Source: Escherichia coli
GTDB lineage: Bacteria; Pseudomonadota; Gammaproteobacteria; Enterobacterales; Enterobacteriaceae
Length of the DNA stretch: 64,000 nucleotides
Direction: 5' to 3' (one strand)
Assembly (NCBI RefSeq): GCF_048403405.1
Contig: NZ_CP183129.1
The position numbers and the translations under genes were made by a program. Below are positions 3,118 to 10,437 of the stretch, piece after piece. Every line of letters begins with the position of its first letter. Positions within the stretch are counted from its first letter, which is position 1. The notes under the pieces were generated by a model. That model was given only the letters and a program-made list of their open reading frames with translations. It searched no databases and was not told where the DNA came from.

Positions 3118-4971
3118 TTATGATGATGCCGGTGCATTTATCTCCAGCACCAGACTTTCTATCTCAACGCCATACGCTGCATTTTTGGTAATATCCGTCA
3201 GCGTCAGCGCATTCAGCCCCAGTGTCAGACTGTCTTTTATGACCTGGAATGCCGGGCCAGCCACTCCATTCAGTTTCGGAGTAACCGTGGCACTGCCGGC
3301 GGTGAACACCAGCTCCAGCGTCTGCCAGTCGTTACTGTAATTCCCGAACTCGCCCAACTTTGTGTTTCCTGCTTTCTTGTGATGCATCAGATTCAGTTTG
3401 CCGTCTGTGGTCTGGGTGAAGAACGACATCAGGAACGGGTTACCAGTCCCGGTCATCGCCACGACGTCAGGTAACGCTACATCGGTATACAGATAAATTC
3501 CCAGACCGAACTGATTGTTGGTCAGTGCGCCTGACAGTCGAAACTTACAGCTCAGTCTGCCACCCCGTGTCAGCAGGGAGACTGCGTCATCCACCGGGCG
3601 CGTCAGGGACCAGGCTTTATTGCTCTGCTTGGTGATCTTAAATACACCATCTGACAACTGAATTCCGCCATTCTTAATGCTCCAGCCCTGCGCAGCAGCG
3701 TCTCCGGCTGTCGGCAACAGGGAGATTGTGCGTATGGATGCATCTTCAGACGGCCCCGATGGCGTGTCGCCGCCGGGCGAGAGTTTGATTTCCGGTGCCT
3801 TACCACTAATGAAGGCTAAGGTGCGACCGGCTACGTTCAGAATAGCAGTTGCCATACGATCGGGAATAATGCCACGACGCGCCCATGAGCTGAAATGCGT
3901 CGGGCGATTTGATGATACCCAGTTTTTGTTCGTTCGGGATGCCGAACCGTAATAACCAGACCCGACAATATCAGGATCTTCTGACGGGTTGTTTGTCGGT
4001 GTATTAACTCCGCTACCATCGGTCATAAAGGGAACAAAATAAATCTGCTGGGATTCTTTACCTTTATATGCACCATATACCACTTCATATTGCGTACCGT
4101 GTTCTTGTTTCCACGCGTATGTCGTGTCGCCACAAATCCAGGGGACTGATGCCGGACTTCCACCGTGACACTGCGCTGCCAGCCCGGCAAGGTCAGCACG
4201 GAACTGCTGTACCATTGCAAGAAATGCTGCTGGCTGCTGGGCGTAACTGGCATTCGTCATATCGAATTCCCCCTGCATCCAGCATATCGCCAGCAAAACG
4301 TTTTTCGGGTTTTTCTGCAATGCTGCCTTCGTGCGGAAAAGCAGATCCTGATATAACGGCTTACCCACTCCCCAGCGAGCCGAATCCTGACTGGCTCCCG
4401 TGGACTCGCTGAATGTCCCCTCCGTGCCCTGGGTGAATGCCGAACCACCACGACAGCATGGTACCAGCAGGATCCCCGCATTATTAGGGATATACGGAAG
4501 CAGTTTTTTGGCAATATGTAAGCCCTGTCCGACACAGCCGTACTGCCCTTTGCTCAGGTCAGCCCGGGGATGGTTAATCGTACTCATATCCTGAACATCA
4601 TGCAGACAATGGTCAGCAGGAATGATGTCGTTAAATACGCATACTTCACCACCGGGAGTCACTGTGTTACGACGGGCCAGTTGCTTAATGCGCGGATGGG
4701 GCGCATCGTATGAATCCGGAAGCGGAAGCCCTTCACCGTAAGCCATGGCATTGGATTGCCCGGCCAGTACGATGACGTAGTACCACTCCGGCTCAGTTGC
4801 ACCACTGACGACCACATCACCTTCTGCTGCAATCGCCTGCATCAGGGTATAAGGGGTTATGGCCACCGGACTACCAAACGGCTGCCAGCCCTCCTTCAGT
4901 TTTTGTGTCAGTCGTTTCGCAAGGTCTGACGGCGATGCCGCCCTGACCACGTCATAGTGTTTAAATGCCAT
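3118..4971 (-). CDS. nanS: prophage sialate O-acetylesterase (NanS-p-like, SGNH hydrolase)
   Basis: 617-aa protein with GQSN motif (VLAGQSNAMAYG) near N-terminus and long C-terminal beta-rich region; sits between the tRNA cluster and holin as in Stx phages. Confidence 0.75.
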   Translation of the reverse strand: MAFKHYDVVRAASPSDLAKRLTQKLKEGWQPFGSPVAITPYTLMQAIAAEGDVVVSGATEPEWYYVIVLAGQSNAMAYGEGLPLPDSYDAPHPRIKQLARRNTVTPGGEVCVFNDIIPADHCLHDVQDMSTINHPRADLSKGQYGCVGQGLHIAKKLLPYIPNNAGILLVPCCRGGSAFTQGTEGTFSESTGASQDSARWGVGKPLYQDLLFRTKAALQKNPKNVLLAICWMQGEFDMTNASYAQQPAAFLAMVQQFRADLAGLAAQCHGGSPASVPWICGDTTYAWKQEHGTQYEVVYGAYKGKESQQIYFVPFMTDGSGVNTPTNNPSEDPDIVGSGYYGSASRTNKNWVSSNRPTHFSSWARRGIIPDRMATAILNVAGRTLAFISGKAPEIKLSPGGDTPSGPSEDASIRTISLLPTAGDAAAQGWSIKNGGIQLSDGVFKITKQSNKAWSLTRPVDDAVSLLTRGGRLSCKFRLSGALTNNQFGLGIYLYTDVALPDVVAMTGTGNPFLMSFFTQTTDGKLNLMHHKKAGNTKLGEFGNYSNDWQTLELVFTAGSATVTPKLNGVAGPAFQVIKDSLTLGLNALTLTDITKNAAYGVEIESLVLEINAPASS

Positions 4972-5164
4972 GAATCCTCCCGGGCGGGATAATGTTGTGA
5001 GTCAGATAAGGAGCAGGCTGAAGTCCGGAAGTTACAGGACAATGGCAGAAGGGAGACTACAGCCCGCAATTCGAAAAAGACCGCGCAGTTGCGCAGAGTG
5101 ATTACTATGGGGTATTATTCGCCAGCTGAAATATTACTTCACGTTTTATTGTTTATTCCTTGCC

Positions 5165-5193
5165 GCCCGCGTCTCCCAGCGCGGGCTTTTTTT
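5165..5193 (+). terminator. intrinsic terminator oriented for the plus strand
   Basis: gcccgcg / cgcgggc 7-bp stem, 8-nt loop, then ttttttt. Confidence 0.6.
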
Positions 5194-5202
5194 GTCCATA
5201 AG

Positions 5203-5436
5203 AAAGCCCCTCCGGAGAGGGGCTAAAGCCGCGTATCTGTATCATCATGCACATGGTGCCGGGTGCCTCCCGGTGAGTTCAGCCCGGTGCCACTAAACCC
5301 GCGTCATTCTCGTTTTGATAATCAGAGATTATACCGTCACCAGTCGCCCCTCCGCTCAGGGGGATTCACCATGCGAAATTTTTTTAACAAATGCCCAGTC
5401 TGACAGGCAACTGTCAACTTACTGAATTGTGAGCAA
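5203..5436 (-). repeat. copy 1 of a tandem ~220-bp structured element (candidate sRNA unit)
   Basis: Direct repeat of 5690..5904 (roughly three-quarters identity by eye); shares the hairpins agcccctc-cgga-gaggggct and ggtgccgggtgcctcccggtga; on the minus strand the unit ends in hairpin plus T-tract. Confidence 0.6.
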
Positions 5437-5689
5437 CATAGCATTTAACGGGGAACCTGTTTTCTGCAGTAAAAAGGCCCACCGGAGCGGATGGGCCTGG
5501 AAGGATAGCGGTCATGTGATGCCGGTTTCCCGGTAACTCAGCACCGGTATCTGAGTCAACGTTTTCTCTACTGGGTCATTTCCGATACGCCCTGCCTGCT
5601 GACAGGCTTTCATCACATCTGAAAATATAGCACCCTGACTGATACTGTAGTACCTAAGGTTCCAGAAACTGTGATGTATCCGGCACAGA

Positions 5690-5904
5690 AAAGCCCCTCC
5701 GGAGAGGGGCTGGAGAGTGGCGCTATGTGCCATTGCATGGTGCCGGGTGCCTCCCGGTGAATTCAGTACCAGCACCTGAATCCGCGATTATCCCATATAC
5801 CTACTCGCTGATTGCCCCTCCGCACAGGGGGATTCACCATGCCAGTTTCTTTTAACAAACTCCCCGCAAACCAGACAACAGTCAACCGCCTGAATTGTGA
5901 GACA
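5690..5904 (-). repeat. copy 2 of the tandem structured element
   Basis: Same hairpin set and shared segments (gggggattcaccatgc, tgaattgtgag) as copy 1. Confidence 0.6.
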
Positions 5905-5945
5905 TTTAAAAAAAAGCCCGCAAAAGCGAGCCAGGGAAAATAAGT

Positions 5946-6022
5946 GTGGCGCGTTGTACTGGATTCGAACCAGTGACCGATTGCTTAGAAGGCAATTGCT
6001 CTGTCCGGCTGAGCTAACAACG
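5946..6022 (-). tRNA. argO: tRNA-Arg (anticodon UCU), phage argO-like
   Basis: Reverse complement folds as canonical cloverleaf: acceptor GCGTTGT/ACAACGC, anticodon loop CTTCTAA, T-loop TTCGAAT, 3' CCA. Confidence 0.85.
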
Positions 6023-6035
6023 CAGGATACAGATA

Positions 6036-6113
6036 ATGGACCGCCTTCGGGGACCCGAACTCCGCGCAACCAGCTTCGAAGGCTGGCGCTCTTTCCTGAT
6101 GAGCTAATGGCGG
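6036..6113 (-). tRNA. argN: tRNA-Arg-like (anticodon UCG inferred), phage argN-like, possibly degenerate
   Basis: Cloverleaf with anticodon stem CCAGC/GCTGG and loop CTTCGAA, but one acceptor mismatch, one T-stem mismatch and atypical T-loop TTCGGGT. Confidence 0.6.
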
Positions 6114-6120
6114 TATGTGA

Positions 6121-6196
6121 TGGTGGCCCTTGCTGGATTTGAACCAGCGACCTGGCGATTATGAGTCGCTCGCTCTCACCACTGAGCTAAAGGGCC
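6121..6196 (-). tRNA. ileZ: tRNA-Ile2-like (anticodon CAU), phage ileZ-like
   Basis: Reverse complement GGCCCTTTAGCTCAGTGGTGAGAGCG...CTCATAA...TTCAAATCCAGCAAGGGCCACCA closely resembles E. coli ileX as recalled. Confidence 0.85.
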
Positions 6197-6245
6197 GGAA
6201 GCAGAATAATAATGGTGCGTAATTAATTCTGCAATCTCATCCGTT

Positions 6246-6572
6246 TCAAACGATTAAATCCTGAACTTCCCTGACTGTCTGCTCAAAACGTCCGGTCTCC
6301 AGTTCAACGCCAATCGCACGACGCCCGAGCGCCAGTGCCGCTTTTACCGTTGAACCTGAGCCCATAAAAAAATCTGCAACCAGGTCTCCCGGACGACTGC
6401 TTGCGCTGATTATCTGCTGCAGCATTTCTGCCGGTTTTTCGCACGGATGTTTCCCGGGATAGAACTGCACCGGTTTATGCGTCCAGACATCGGTATACGG
6501 CACCTGCGCTGTCACGCCAAAATACCGCCGCAGTCGGCATTCACAACCACAAGCGTGTTTAACGTACTGCAC
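6246..6572 (-). pseudogene. 5'-truncated DNA methyltransferase remnant (C-terminal half only)
   Basis: Carries HPCEKP and FMGSGST motifs but no upstream DPPY-type catalytic motif; in-frame stop 2 codons upstream of the GTG; only ~110 bp to the next gene. Confidence 0.6.
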
Positions 6573-6585
6573 AGCTTTTCAGACA

Positions 6586-6612
6586 TAAAAAGGCCGCCTG
6601 ATAGCAGCCTTT
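6586..6612 (-). terminator. intrinsic terminator downstream of the PP2C gene
   Basis: On minus strand aggctgc-tatcag-gcggcct stem (one G-U pair) followed by ttttt. Confidence 0.5.
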
Positions 6613-6682
6613 TCACATTAAAATTAAGTTTTTCTTTACTCTGTAGTATGGGAAATTAGCATTCCCTACTGGGTTTATACAA

Positions 6683-7426
6683 CTAATCTGACGTCACACG
6701 CACCATTATACTTACTAAAGAAAAGTCATCATCAGGTCCGGCTCTCTCTATACGACGCAAAATACCATTAGAAAACTTCTGACTATTACTCATAGTATTT
6801 GATGTAAATCTGGGGCGTTTTTCCCAAACGTTATGAACTCCATCAGACATGATACACAGATGATACAACCCGTTAATACCAGGCAAATCTTTCCACGGGA
6901 TAAAATCACAGTCGTATTCCATATCAACATTTGAGGCTATGGCAGTCGTTAAGATATTTTTTCCCGGTTTATTCTTCAAATCTCTGGGTTTAAAAATATT
7001 CTGATCAATTAACATCTGATGTCTGGTATCGTCCTTCGTCAATTGATATGCTTTCTTTTCTCCAATGCAATACAAGCGACAATCACCAATATGACCAATA
7101 ATAATTCCGCTATCACAAACATAACAAAAGGTAAGTGTAGTAGCAGCTTTATCGAACTCATCATTAACTTCAGCTAACGACATAACTTTTCGCTTAACTT
7201 CAGCAAATACATTCGGAACTGCATCAAAAGATAAACTTGTCAATGCTGAAAGTTCAGCGATTGCCATGGATGAAGCATAACTGGCACCAGAGTATGAACC
7301 TACACCATCAGCTACGGCAAATAAGATGCCGTCTCCTACAATTTTTGGAGGAAGCAATGAATCTTCGTTGACCCTACCTGGTTCTTTTGGATACGAGAAT
7401 GATGAAGTCGCTATCAGCTGAATCAT
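6683..7426 (-). CDS. PP2C-family (PPM) Ser/Thr protein phosphatase
   Basis: Motifs NEDS, FAVADGVGS, GHIGDCR, MSDGV in PP2C order; ATG with AAGGAG Shine-Dalgarno; 103 bp downstream of the kinase gene. Confidence 0.8.
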   Translation of the reverse strand: MIQLIATSSFSYPKEPGRVNEDSLLPPKIVGDGILFAVADGVGSYSGASYASSMAIAELSALTSLSFDAVPNVFAEVKRKVMSLAEVNDEFDKAATTLTFCYVCDSGIIIGHIGDCRLYCIGEKKAYQLTKDDTRHQMLIDQNIFKPRDLKNKPGKNILTTAIASNVDMEYDCDFIPWKDLPGINGLYHLCIMSDGVHNVWEKRPRFTSNTMSNSQKFSNGILRRIERAGPDDDFSLVSIMVRVTSD

Positions 7427-7529
7427 GACTCACTCCTTAAAAAAGAATGCGCAAAATCAAACGCCACATCATCTATTGTCTGATATCTATCATCTTTATC
7501 CATCCTTGTGCACTTAGCTATGATAGGCT

Positions 7530-8186
7530 TTATTTTTTATCATCTAAATTTAAGTCTTCAATTAACCGTCCCACAGCATAAACATCAGTCTTAACTGAAT
7601 ACTCTGCATTATATAAAATCTCGGGAGCCATATATCTTGTACTTCCCATACGGGTACCGATCTCGGTCAATTTAGTGGTATCCCCTTCGGGATTCGTATC
7701 TTTTACCAGACCAAAATCAGACACCTTGTATGTTCCGTCGCTAAATCGCAAAACATTAAAGGGTTTTATATCTCTGTGTAAATAGCCTTTGGCATGGATG
7801 TAAGCTACACCATCTAATACCATTTTCACTATTGAAATTTTTTGATCTGTTGTAAGAAGGTTGTTCGTTATTTCGTGCTCAAGATCACATTCTGCTTTAT
7901 CCATAATGAACCATGGATTCTCAACAAACAAATCGCACAAATAAATAGGAACAATATTGCTATGTACGCAATGTGATTGATACACAACCTCCCTTTTAAA
8001 ACGCCTTCTAAACTGCTCTATTTGCGCCAAAAGCTCTGGTTTTTCGGGTGCTAAAACCTTTCTAGCATAATCCCCGCATTCACCTTTATTGAGGTTGTAA
8101 ACCTTAACGTGTTCAACAAAGCCAAATGCCCCTCTTCCAATCAACTGAATTCGTTTTATAAAGTAATTACCGTGCTGTTCTTCCAT
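7530..8186 (-). CDS. Hanks-type (eukaryotic-like) Ser/Thr protein kinase
   Basis: Gly-rich loop GRGAFGFV, catalytic loop HRDIKPFN, DFG (VSDFGLV) and APE (YMAPEIL) motifs; start taken at internal ATG 8186 because the ORF's TTG start lies inside the upstream terminator hairpin. Confidence 0.8.
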   Translation of the reverse strand: MEEQHGNYFIKRIQLIGRGAFGFVEHVKVYNLNKGECGDYARKVLAPEKPELLAQIEQFRRRFKREVVYQSHCVHSNIVPIYLCDLFVENPWFIMDKAECDLEHEITNNLLTTDQKISIVKMVLDGVAYIHAKGYLHRDIKPFNVLRFSDGTYKVSDFGLVKDTNPEGDTTKLTEIGTRMGSTRYMAPEILYNAEYSVKTDVYAVGRLIEDLNLDDKK

Positions 8187-8258
8187 TAAGCTCACCGACC
8201 TAAATTGTAACAATATCCATATATTACAACTACAGATAAAAAGGTCCACAGAGTTAAG

Positions 8259-8287
8259 CAAAAAACCCGCACATTTGAGCGGGTTTA
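8259..8287 (-). terminator. intrinsic terminator immediately after the Q-like gene (tR'-like)
   Basis: Minus strand aaacccgc-tcaaatgt-gcgggtttttt. Confidence 0.6.
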
Positions 8288-8332
8288 TACACTTTACAGC
8301 AATATATCACATTTACATAAAATATATGCTAT

Positions 8333-9028
8333 CTAATTGACTTTTGCAATATCTCGCTGCAAAAATGCCGCTTTTTGTTGAGATCTCCTTTTCACAGTGC
8401 AAATCAGAGATTCGGTATCGAGGTTCATAAAAATGTCGAGTATTTCACGCCAGTAGCTCACATAATTGTGGCTCCAGTTGTCAGGCTTAATCCCACACAG
8501 ACGGGCAAGCTCCTGTTGCTGGTAGATATCATGTCCTATAACCCATCTCCTGACATCCTGTGCAGCCAGCCAGATTAATTTTTTCAGGCGTTCCTGTGTC
8601 TTCCCTGCAATTTTCCTGGTACCAGAGTGAGTCTTAAATTCTGTCCATGCCCACTGCGTTATCGCGATCTGATACTCCCAGCAAGTATTTCCGCTGTAAC
8701 ACCACAACAACCAGGCTTTATGATGTTCTTCAAGAGACAAAACAGCCCGCCGCCATGATGATGTAGAAAAAGCAACCTGACTGACCAGAGGAATTGACGT
8801 CCCCTTCGCCAGCGATTGTTTTCCCGGGATTGGTGGATTATCCCGCGTTATCATTTTTCCGGTCACTTCATCGCGGTACCGGATTTTTTTACGCCTGTAA
8901 CGCCCTGTATCGAACATGGCATTCTCCTGCCAGGCTTCAAGCTGACCTTTTGTTGCCCCACTCAAATCAGCGGTGGCGATAATGAGCTGCTCACGCACAA
9001 ACTGTAAATACTGGTTATTCATGCGCAC
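8333..9028 (-). CDS. putative late-gene antiterminator (Q-like)
   Basis: 231-aa protein directly downstream of rusA and upstream of terminator, tRNAs and lysis genes; assignment by position, not by a recognised motif. Confidence 0.45.
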   Translation of the reverse strand: MRMNNQYLQFVREQLIIATADLSGATKGQLEAWQENAMFDTGRYRRKKIRYRDEVTGKMITRDNPPIPGKQSLAKGTSIPLVSQVAFSTSSWRRAVLSLEEHHKAWLLWCYSGNTCWEYQIAITQWAWTEFKTHSGTRKIAGKTQERLKKLIWLAAQDVRRWVIGHDIYQQQELARLCGIKPDNWSHNYVSYWREILDIFMNLDTESLICTVKRRSQQKAAFLQRDIAKVN

Positions 9029-9378
9029 TCCAGTTCTGTGATTTTTATCCCCAGCCGCCCACCAGGAACGAGCTGACCGCGCACAATATTGATTTCATCA
9101 AACTGCTCGTCGTCTATAAGTAGTCCGGCATGCGTCAGCGCATCCAGTGGTGCCTTCAGGATATTGTCCAGGTCGCGGCGGCGCTTATCCGGTGGCTCTG
9201 CAATCACCTTTATCGCCAGCCTTCCGGACAGGCTTAATTTCAGCCGCTGCTGGCGAACAATAAGCGCCACAGCCCGGCGATAACGCTTTCCCTCCTCCGA
9301 GATAAAATATGTGCTGCCACGGCGTCGCCAGTAAGTGTTCACCGTCGGCGGGTAAGGTAAAACCAAATCTATGAGCAT
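9019..9378 (-). CDS. rusA: RusA Holliday-junction resolvase
   Basis: 119 aa; conserved PDKRRRDLDN and GGRLGIKITE segments match RusA as recalled. Confidence 0.85.
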   Translation of the reverse strand: MLIDLVLPYPPTVNTYWRRRGSTYFISEEGKRYRRAVALIVRQQRLKLSLSGRLAIKVIAEPPDKRRRDLDNILKAPLDALTHAGLLIDDEQFDEINIVRGQLVPGGRLGIKITELECA

Positions 9379-9390
9379 CAGTCACCTCTT

Positions 9391-10437
9391 TTACCCAAGC
9401 ACGCCAGTTGCAAAGGCGTGATCAAGAAAACGAAAAATTAAATCAACCTGAGAACCATGCTTTTCTTCGAACGCCAGAGGATCCGCATGAAGCTCGTTGT
9501 GATGCTCCCGACACAGCGGTAGCGTGAAAATATCGTGAGATTTTGTCCCCATTCCGCCCTGACCATGACCAATCAGGTGATGGGGATCGTCGGCTGGCTT
9601 ACCACAACACGCACACGGCTGTGTCTTCACCCAGCGTGTGTATTTCTCGTTAACCCAGCGGCGACGTTTAGGTCGTTTCATGAAAGATTCCGGAGACTCA
9701 GGATCAACGGCAATGCTGACCACCGTCTCTTCCTGTGGCGGGTTTTGCTGGTGGGCGTGAGGCAGCGGCGCAAGATTTTTTGTGCGCTGCTTCAGTATGC
9801 TGGTGGCGGTCTGCTCTCCCGGTACGATGTCGCTTTCACGGTACATTGAGCGGATTTTTTCCGCACGCAACCCCAGCGAACGACGTAATACCGCTTCCGG
9901 TAGCGCGTCCGCCACCTGATTGCGGACCGCCCACCAGGATAATTCAGCCAGCGATAATTCCCGTTCCTGCGAGCCATTCATTGCATGGCGTATGACGTCA
10001 ATCATCCATGCAGACAGGTTTTGGTGAGCAAGTTGCCCGAGTGATTCGGAGGTCTGGTCGCGCAGCTGGTTGTCGCAGTGCCAGCACAACACCATTGCGC
10101 CGGTACCATAACGGTGAATGACGGTTTCACTGTGGTGATAATCGCCGTGTGGCCACTGGCAGGATTTAACATGGCGCAGTAACCAATCAGACAATGCGCC
10201 AGCGCCACCAGCAGCACGAATCACTCGTTCGTCGCTGAAAAATGGCAGTAATGATTTATCCTCCGCCAGCGGCTGGCGAACGGCAGGAACGACCCCGGAC
10301 GGCAGATTACGCATGCTTTTCGGTTCCGGCTCCACCAGTACCCGGGTATTGTGGAATACCGGCATGGATTCACGGCCCGGCTTAACGATCACCAGCCCGA
10401 GTTCCGGTACCAGAACAGGTCGAAGTAATACCCGCAC
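9391..10437 (-). CDS. YdfU-like prophage protein (DUF968 type) with C-terminal Cys/His-rich motif
   Basis: 348 aa; CACCG...HHLIGHGQGGMGTKSHD...CREHHNELH cluster; position equivalent to ydfU in Qin. Confidence 0.6.
   Translation of the reverse strand: MRVLLRPVLVPELGLVIVKPGRESMPVFHNTRVLVEPEPKSMRNLPSGVVPAVRQPLAEDKSLLPFFSDERVIRAAGGAGALSDWLLRHVKSCQWPHGDYHHSETVIHRYGTGAMVLCWHCDNQLRDQTSESLGQLAHQNLSAWMIDVIRHAMNGSQERELSLAELSWWAVRNQVADALPEAVLRRSLGLRAEKIRSMYRESDIVPGEQTATSILKQRTKNLAPLPHAHQQNPPQEETVVSIAVDPESPESFMKRPKRRRWVNEKYTRWVKTQPCACCGKPADDPHHLIGHGQGGMGTKSHDIFTLPLCREHHNELHADPLAFEEKHGSQVDLIFRFLDHAFATGVLG

What the first reader, a model, noticed from the sequence alone, without database searches (positions are those of the whole stretch)
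6246..6612. Decapitated DNA methyltransferase remnant beside the kinase/phosphatase cargo
Only the C-terminal half of an N6/N4 methyltransferase remains (HPxxKP and FxGxG motifs, no catalytic DPPY region), beginning directly after the terminator that closes the PP2C gene. It is the kind of scar left when a cargo module replaces the 5' part of a resident gene, and it supports recent acquisition of the kinase/phosphatase pair.
Basis: partly seen in the sequence, partly recalled or inferred. Interest (0 to 1): 0.35.

Follow-up and report, generated by a model that had tools for sequence, protein, structure and literature searches.

The report
Truncated phage methyltransferase pseudogene, unrelated to cargo
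This is an ordinary, already-annotated pseudogene: the last 95 codons of a well-known prophage DNA adenine methyltransferase (M.EcoGI/M.EcoGII family), left by a 1.2-kb internal deletion that was not made by the neighbouring kinase/phosphatase insertion.

Summary
Window 6246-6533 (minus strand) encodes only residues 255-349 of a 349-aa beta-class N6-adenine methyltransferase. HPCEKP and FMGSG are present; DPPY and the target-recognition region are absent from the whole 64-kb window. RefSeq already annotates the identical sequence as a pseudogene "missing N-terminus". The intact gene belongs to the M.EcoGI/M.EcoGII family and is near full length in 1905 of 5426 complete E. coli genomes.

The causal interpretation does not hold.
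- The cargo's right edge (about 6613/6614) lies 80 nt upstream of the truncation junction (6533|6534). The native tR'-type terminator and leader sit between them.
- E24377A and STEC388 carry the same kinase-PP2C cassette followed by orf65 and an intact 349-aa methyltransferase.
- The same junction, including shared derived bases, occurs without this cargo: directly after a short Q gene (AF18, phage PhiR49_2, PU-1) and after a porin gene.

The scar is therefore a roughly 1183-bp deletion from the leader to codon 254. It removed orf65 and three quarters of the methyltransferase gene, then spread by recombination. The cassette's foreign origin is supported by its 37% GC and its absence from relatives, not by this scar. 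Low interest; already known.

The parts
6246..6533 (-). Methyltransferase remnant: codons 255-349 plus the stop of an M.EcoGI/GII-family beta-class N6-adenine methyltransferase. It keeps HPCEKP and the AdoMet motif FMGSG.
   Evidence: 100% protein identity to residues 255-349 of WP_000935539.1. Pfam PF01555 profile positions 134-219/221. PGAP pseudogene 'missing N-terminus' in identical sequence of strains 118UI and 55989.
6533..6534 (-). Deletion junction. The leader (...GTGGTTGTGAATGCCGA) is joined to methyltransferase codon 255 (CTGCGGCGGTATTTTGG...). About 1183 bp are missing relative to AF3: orf65 plus methyltransferase codons 1-254.
   Evidence: Alignments A1, A2 and A3 and motif mapping. 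The deleted segment is absent from the window.
6534..6587 (-). Remainder of the native leader, between the tR'-type terminator and the position where orf65 would begin. The GTG at 6572 opens the mechanical 108-aa ORF inside it.
   Evidence: Homologous to the leader upstream of orf65 in AF3, HCP5S3_I4, AR_0067 and E24377A.
6588..6616 (-). Terminator T2 (GGCTGC-loop-GCGGCC followed by a T-run). It is homologous to the tR' terminator that follows Q/pR' directly in the cargo-free prophage AF3.
   Evidence: Fold dG -21.7 kcal/mol, z -6.6. Alignment to AF3 4257-4288.
6614..8298 (-). Kinase-PP2C cargo module. It contains terminator T1 (8263-8286), the Ser/Thr kinase (ATG at 8186 to 7530, frameshifted allele), PP2C (7426-6683) and 70 nt of trailer. 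It takes the place of about 27 nt between pR' and tR' of AF3-type prophages.
   Evidence: Boundaries from AF3 versus window and E24377A. Pfam hits. GC about 37% against 50-56% in the flanks.
8333..9028 (-). Antiterminator Q, the upstream anchor of the locus.
   Evidence: PF06323, E 5.6e-84.
5947..6196 (-). tRNA cluster (Ile/Met-CAT, Arg-TCG, Arg-TCT) immediately downstream of the remnant; the downstream anchor of the locus.
   Evidence: ARAGORN, Rfam, PGAP annotation.

Best explanation
The remnant is a non-functional pseudogene. In lambdoid prophages of E. coli the ancestral order is Q, pR', tR', leader, orf65, a 349-aa non-specific m6A methyltransferase of the M.EcoGI/GII family, tRNA genes, then late and lysis genes. 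One illegitimate deletion of about 1.18 kb joined the leader just downstream of tR' to methyltransferase codon 255. It removed orf65, the catalytic DPPY motif and the target-recognition region. That deletion allele then moved by homologous recombination among lambdoid prophages and now sits behind at least three different upstream modules. The kinase-PP2C cassette is a separate, low-GC insertion between pR' and tR'. It is found with either the intact or the deleted methyltransferase. Shown here: the truncation, the junction, the cargo boundaries and the four configurations. Inferred: loss of enzymatic function, because only the AdoMet-binding third of a single-domain fold remains; a single origin of the junction; and spread by recombination. 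The remnant is presumably still transcribed as part of the Q-dependent late transcript that runs into the tRNAs, with no role of its own. The phage has lost the ability to hypermethylate its progeny DNA against restriction.
For: The remnant corresponds to residues 255-349 at 100% identity and the rest is absent from the window. Pfam covers only profile positions 134-219/221. PGAP calls it a pseudogene. Intact 349-aa genes occupy the syntenic position and are near full length in 1905 of 5426 genomes. The family link comes from three points: 349 aa, the DPPY-TRD-FxGxG order, and 95% identity to the phage 1720a-02 gene that Murray et al. name as very similar to M.EcoGII (PMC5778455). The sequence before the junction is native leader. 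The cargo edge is 80 nt away. Cargo occurs with the intact gene in E24377A and STEC388. The same junction occurs without this cargo in AF18, PhiR49_2, PU-1, L014 and L015. A probe spanning the junction is covered at 80% or more in 103 genomes, of which 29 match at 99% or more; the same number carry the window-type cassette at 99% or more. The remnant is mosaic. Window versus AF18 shows 1 difference in the first 130 nt after the junction and 17 in the next 140. Window versus intact HCP5S3_I4 shows the opposite pattern. This fits one deletion event followed by recombination.
Against: No expression or activity data exist, so 'non-functional' is inferred from the missing motifs. All remnants examined remain open and identical in protein to intact C-termini. 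That is expected for a young deletion or for recombination with intact alleles, but it does not exclude selection on the fragment. The order of events is unresolved: the deletion may have arisen in a prophage that already carried the cargo, or in one that did not. The leader variant ACGTTAAA is shared by the cargo types B and C and by the cargo-free deleted types, but not by the cargo-free intact type. No microhomology explains the junction.
Confidence: 0.88

Rival explanations
1. One reading: insertion of the kinase/PP2C cargo replaced the 5' part of the resident methyltransferase gene, so the remnant is the insertion scar and marks a recent acquisition.
For: Compared only with AF3-type prophages, the window lacks orf65 and methyltransferase codons 1-254 and has the cassette in roughly the same interval. 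The cassette is compositionally foreign, 37% GC.
Against: The cargo edge (about 6613) and the deletion junction (6533|6534) are 80 nt apart, with native tR' and leader between them. E24377A and STEC388 have cargo plus an intact gene. The identical junction occurs in prophages without this cargo. The cassette alleles differ by about 5%, which does not suggest a very recent single acquisition.
Confidence: 0.04
2. The remnant is kept because it acts in cis for the downstream tRNA cluster, for example as a promoter, a processing site or a spacer.
For: The remnant always ends about 50 nt upstream of tRNA-Ile and is retained in three upstream contexts.
Against: Many prophages carry the same tRNA cluster with homology starting only about 38 nt upstream of tRNA-Ile and no methyltransferase sequence at all. 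Another truncation keeps only the last 100 nt or so (rows H57-H67). No promoter-like site was found on the minus strand within 6200-6600. No Rfam element lies in the remnant.
Confidence: 0.04
3. The 108-aa ORF is translated and acts as a small protein, for example an AdoMet-binding fragment or a dominant-negative partner of intact M.EcoGII-family enzymes encoded by co-resident prophages.
For: The ORF is open, lies in the late operon, and its methyltransferase-derived part is identical in protein to intact alleles. Genomes can hold up to 6 copies of the family.
Against: It has a GTG start with no evident ribosome-binding site, and a stop codon lies two codons upstream. Different junction-bearing alleles have different N-terminal extensions or none, so no conserved start exists. 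In beta-class enzymes the N- and C-terminal motifs build one domain (established knowledge; PMC5778455), so a C-terminal third is unlikely to fold. Sequence identity is explained by the youth of the deletion and by recombination.
Confidence: 0.03

Closest known systems
M.EcoGI / M.EcoGII, prophage-encoded non-specific N6-adenine DNA methyltransferases of E. coli O104:H4 C227-11 (Murray et al. 2018, PMC5778455)
   Same: The intact counterpart of the remnant is 349 aa. It has an N-terminal DPPY, a central target-recognition region and a C-terminal FxGxG, and it lies in lambdoid prophages. It is 95% identical to the phage 1720a-02 enzyme that the paper names as very similar to M.EcoGII.
   Different: The window keeps only residues 255-349 and has no catalytic motif and no target-recognition region. 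I did not have the M.EcoGII sequence itself, so the link is indirect, through its length, architecture and the 1720a-02 homologue.
PGAP pseudogene 'site-specific DNA-methyltransferase, incomplete, missing N-terminus' (for example Eco118UI_RS07620 and EC55989_RS07145)
   Same: Identical sequence and coordinates, 288 nt corresponding to window 6246-6533.
   Different: None. This is the same feature, already annotated.
Moron or cargo slot downstream of Q/pR' in lambdoid phages (the position of stx in Stx phages)
   Same: The kinase-PP2C cassette and, in other prophages, a porin gene occupy the interval between Q and the methyltransferase or tRNA block. In phage 1720a-02 the methyltransferase lies between Q and stx2A.
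   Different: The methyltransferase remnant is not part of the cargo and was not made by it.

Membership tests
Beta-class N6/N4 amino-methyltransferase (Pfam PF01555), M.EcoGI/GII subfamily | Significant sequence similarity to the family | tested here: met
   PF01555 at E 3.5e-24. 100% identity to residues 255-349 of an intact 349-aa member.
Beta-class N6/N4 amino-methyltransferase (Pfam PF01555), M.EcoGI/GII subfamily | N-terminal catalytic motif IV (DPPY) | tested here: not met
   Only profile positions 134-219/221 are matched. Residues 1-254, which include TDPPYF, are absent from the whole window.
Beta-class N6/N4 amino-methyltransferase (Pfam PF01555), M.EcoGI/GII subfamily | Central target-recognition region | tested here: not met
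   The residues between the DPPY region and residue 255 of the intact protein have no counterpart in the window.
Beta-class N6/N4 amino-methyltransferase (Pfam PF01555), M.EcoGI/GII subfamily | C-terminal AdoMet-binding motif I (FxGxG) | tested here: met
   FMGSG is present in the ORF, with HPCEKP upstream of it.
Beta-class N6/N4 amino-methyltransferase (Pfam PF01555), M.EcoGI/GII subfamily | Methyltransferase activity | not testable with these tools
   Needs an enzyme assay or SMRT/nanopore methylome of induced phage DNA. Activity is expected to be absent.
Pseudogene (truncated derivative of a syntenic intact gene) | Intact orthologue at the same position in related elements, and the local copy lacks part of it | tested here: met
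   AF3, HCP5S3_I4, E24377A and STEC388 carry 1050-nt genes between the Q/leader and the tRNAs. The gene is near full length in 1905 of 5426 genomes. The window keeps 288 nt.
Cargo-insertion scar (gene truncated by the inserted module itself) | The truncation junction coincides with the edge of the inserted module | tested here: not met
   The cargo edge is at about 6613/6614 and the junction at 6533|6534. The sequence between them is native tR' and leader.
Cargo-insertion scar (gene truncated by the inserted module itself) | The truncation co-occurs with the cargo and is absent without it | tested here: not met
   Cargo occurs with an intact gene. The same junction occurs without this cargo.

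The most novel reading that the evidence does not exclude
The remnant ORF, a 95-aa AdoMet-binding fragment with a new 13-aa leader-derived N-terminus, might be made during late transcription. It could then bind AdoMet, or poison intact M.EcoGII-family enzymes of co-resident or superinfecting lambdoid phages. Alternatively, loss of the toxic non-specific methyltransferase might have been positively selected and spread for that reason.
Probability: 0.03. Interest if true: 0.4.

Novelty: already known. Interest (0 to 1): 0.08.

Why it matters
It matters little. The feature is a routine prophage pseudogene that RefSeq already flags, derived from a well-characterised enzyme family. The useful result is negative: the scar cannot be used as evidence for how or when the kinase-PP2C cassette arrived. 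A minor practical point follows. Prophages with this allele have lost the late-expressed non-specific m6A methyltransferase, so their progeny DNA should be less protected against restriction than that of relatives such as the E24377A prophage. The locus also illustrates how one deletion allele spreads behind different upstream modules by recombination among lambdoid phages.

Tried and rejected
1. I used the search for homologous proteins with the 108-aa ORF to get a length distribution. The listed hits were all under 190 aa, and many were 'partial' fragments at contig ends or the same truncated alleles. That list cannot show that stand-alone short forms are the norm. The DNA search with the intact gene gave the proper picture.
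2. A literature search on ileZ/argN/argO plus methyltransferase returned nothing relevant. One query failed on syntax.
3. I looked for microhomology at the deletion endpoints. GTGAAT and CGG occur near both sides, but the observed junction does not fit a crossover in either. The deletion is best called illegitimate.
4. I looked for a promoter or an RNA element inside the remnant that could explain its retention and found none.
5. I considered that the 37 nt before the methyltransferase homology might belong to a divergent full-length allele, because a QYV tripeptide is shared with the intact protein. I rejected this because that stretch aligns to the leader upstream of orf65 in four intact prophages.
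6. I did not run a structure prediction of the fragment. It would not decide function.

Full report
**Setting.** The window is an E. coli lambdoid prophage read on the minus strand. The gene order is:
- DUF968/NinG-like gene (9391-10437)
- RusA (9019-9378)
- antiterminator Q (8333-9028, PF06323)
- a terminator hairpin, T1 (8263-8286)
- a Ser/Thr kinase (8186-7530)
- a PP2C phosphatase (7426-6683)
- a second terminator, T2 (6588-6616)
- the ORF in question (6572-6246)
- three tRNAs (6196-5947)
- a SASA/DUF1737/DUF6645 esterase (4971-3118), then holin, lysozyme and Rz

The 2.5 kb around the finding is 100% identical to E. coli strain 118UI.

**Observation.**
- The 108-aa ORF matches Pfam PF01555 (N6_N4_Mtase) at E 3.5e-24, but only over profile positions 134-219 of 221.
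- An intact homologue at the same position in strain HCP5S3_I4 is 349 aa, with TDPPYF at residues 33-38.
- tblastn of that protein places residues 255-349 at window 6533-6249 with 100% identity. It finds nothing for residues 1-254 or for the upstream 65-aa ORF anywhere in the 64 kb.
- HPCEKP and FMGSG are present.
The remnant is the last 27% of the protein rather than half. The homology ends at 6533.
- PGAP already annotates the identical 288 nt as a pseudogene, [quoted passage not shown], in strains 118UI and 55989.

**What the intact gene is.**
- Near-full-length copies occur in 1905 of 5426 complete E. coli genomes, up to six per genome. They lie between Q and the tRNA or late genes.
- In phage 1720a-02 the gene lies between Q and stx2A.
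- Murray et al. (PMC5778455) describe M.EcoGII and its near-twin M.EcoGI as follows: 349 aa, beta class (DPPY, target-recognition region, FxGxG), prophage-encoded, silent in the lysogen, harmful when expressed constitutively, and methylating adenine in any sequence context. They name the 1720a-02 enzyme as very similar.
- The intact counterpart of our remnant is 95% identical to the 1720a-02 protein.
- I therefore assign the remnant to the M.EcoGI/GII family. The link is indirect because I did not hold the M.EcoGII sequence itself.

**Where the truncation comes from.** Four configurations of the Q-to-tRNA interval were recovered:
- A: Q, tR', leader, orf65, methyltransferase (349 aa), tRNAs. 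Found in AF3 and HCP5S3_I4.
- B: Q, T1, kinase, PP2C, T2, leader, orf65, intact methyltransferase (349 aa), tRNA. Found in E24377A and STEC388, whose cassettes are about 95% identical to the window's.
- C: the window type, with the cassette and then the remnant. Found in 118UI and 55989.
- D: a short Q gene, tR', leader, the same remnant, tRNAs, with no cassette. Found in AF18, phage PhiR49_2 and PU-1.
- A fifth context has a porin gene on the opposite strand between Q and the same remnant.

**The junction.**
- Alignments and motif mapping show what lies just before the methyltransferase homology. The 37 nt GCAGTACGTTAAACACGCTTGTGGTTGTGAATGCCGA are the native leader that precedes orf65 in types A and B.
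- In the window this leader is fused to codon 255 (CTGCGGCGGTATTTTGG).
- Relative to AF3 the missing segment is L007 4335-5517, 1183 bp: orf65 plus codons 1-254.
- The 40 nt across the junction are identical in types C and D and in the porin context. All share GAATGCCGA, where intact leaders have GAATACCGG, GAATACGGG or GAATACCTG. This argues for a single deletion event.
- A 91-nt probe spanning the junction is covered at 80% or more in 103 genomes. Twenty-nine of these match at 99% or more, equal to the number of genomes that carry the window-type cassette at 99% or more. The rest match at about 95% and start at probe position 16; the three examined (AF18, PhiR49_2, PU-1) are cassette-free.
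- About 1200 genomes match only the methyltransferase side of the probe.

**Where the cargo ends.**
- Comparing AF3 with the window and with E24377A, homology on the Q side stops at window 8299 and resumes at window 6613.
- The inserted module is therefore about 6614-8298. It comprises T1, kinase, PP2C and 70 nt of trailer, and it replaces about 27 nt between pR' and tR'.
- The cargo edge and the deletion junction are thus 80 nt apart, separated by resident sequence.
- Together with configuration B (cargo with the intact gene) and the cassette-free copies of the same junction, this refutes the idea that the cargo decapitated the methyltransferase.
- The foreign nature of the cassette is real but rests on other evidence: about 37% GC against 50-56% in the flanks, and its absence from type A.
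- The roughly 5% divergence between the two cassette alleles does not suggest a very recent single acquisition.

**Recombination.**
- Within the remnant, window versus AF18 shows 1 difference in the first 130 nt after the junction and 17 in the next 140.
- Window versus the intact HCP5S3_I4 allele shows 6 differences in the first 53 nt and 1 afterwards.
- The junction-proximal part is therefore shared among deletion alleles. The distal part has been exchanged with different intact alleles, including the alternative C-terminal endings DLIV and DLVSQNG, both of which exist in intact genes.
- This mosaic explains why the remnants show no decay.

**Function.**
- The remnant lacks the catalytic motif and the target-recognition region. 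In beta-class enzymes the N- and C-terminal motifs build one domain (PMC5778455), so I infer that it is enzymatically dead.
- The ORF has a GTG start with no evident ribosome-binding site, and a stop codon lies two codons upstream.
- Junction alleles in other contexts have different N-terminal extensions, or none.
- A cis role for the tRNAs is unlikely for three reasons. Other prophages carry the same tRNA cluster with no methyltransferase sequence, or with only about 100 nt of it (rows H57-H67). No promoter-like site lies in 6200-6600 on the minus strand. Rfam finds nothing there.
- The likely consequence is simply that this phage no longer hypermethylates its progeny DNA.

**Unresolved.** It is not clear whether the deletion first arose in a cassette-bearing or a cassette-free prophage. 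The leader variant ACGTTAAA is shared by types B and C and the cassette-free deletion alleles, but not by type A, which is compatible with either order. No microhomology explains the junction.

**Verdict.** The causal link to the cargo is not supported. The feature is already annotated and belongs to a well-known family. Interest is low.

Noticed in passing
window 7530-8186 (minus strand); indel at about 7538/7539: The kinase gene carries a 1-nt deletion relative to the 55989 and E24377A alleles. This shortens the protein from 254 to 218 aa, so that it ends ...LDDKK*, and abolishes the overlap of its stop codon with the PP2C start. Only 4 of 49 genomes with the cassette match the window at 100% (118UI, ECO_2_R, ECO_1_S, MSB1_7C).
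   Followed up: partly
window 6614-8298 (minus strand): The kinase-PP2C cassette looks like a low-GC moron (about 37% GC) inserted between pR' and the native tR', with its own terminator T1 at its 5' end. The kinase matches PADLOC models mad6 (E 1e-40), PD-T4-6 and Stk2. The PP2C has no PADLOC hit. The cassette occurs in 49 of 5426 E. coli genomes as two alleles that differ by about 5%. A phage-defence or exclusion kinase with a partner phosphatase is a reasonable hypothesis.
   Followed up: partly
window 8205-8230 (minus strand): An imperfect palindrome (GTTGTAATATATGGATATTGTTACAA) lies between T1 and the kinase start. It could be an operator or promoter element of the cassette. This rests on visual inspection only.
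   Followed up: no
window 5194-5403, 5681-5871 and (weak) 5469-5642, minus strand: Two strong matches and one sub-threshold match to the Rfam sRNA family STnc100 (RF02076; 165, 136 and 30 bits) lie between the tRNA cluster and the SASA esterase gene.
   Followed up: no
window 6121-6196 (minus strand): ARAGORN calls this tRNA Met (anticodon CAT), while PGAP calls the identical gene tRNA-Ile in most genomes and tRNA-Met in PU-1. This is the usual ambiguity for a tRNA-Ile whose CAT anticodon is read as Ile after lysidine modification (ileZ type).
   Followed up: no
L010 (EPSSH018) 4366-5412; L006 (AR_0067) 4409-5311; L014 and L015: The slot downstream of the leader is highly variable among relatives. 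In EPSSH018 the methyltransferase is replaced by a 237-aa helix-turn-helix protein. AR_0067 has orf65 but neither methyltransferase nor tRNAs, and has iraM instead. Other prophages have a porin gene between Q and the same truncated methyltransferase.
   Followed up: partly
L001 (strain 118UI) 5669-6882, compared with window 4972-5946: Strain 118UI has an IS3-family element between the tRNAs and the esterase gene that the window lacks. The window is therefore not from 118UI, despite 100% identity over 5900-8400.
   Followed up: no
row H57; proteins P0005, P0045 and P0114: The M.EcoGII-family gene has been truncated or fused independently at other breakpoints in other prophages. One example is an in-frame fusion at ...LDYVELQSEYKHLRRYFGV; another copy keeps only about the last 100 nt. 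Decay of this gene is therefore recurrent.
   Followed up: partly
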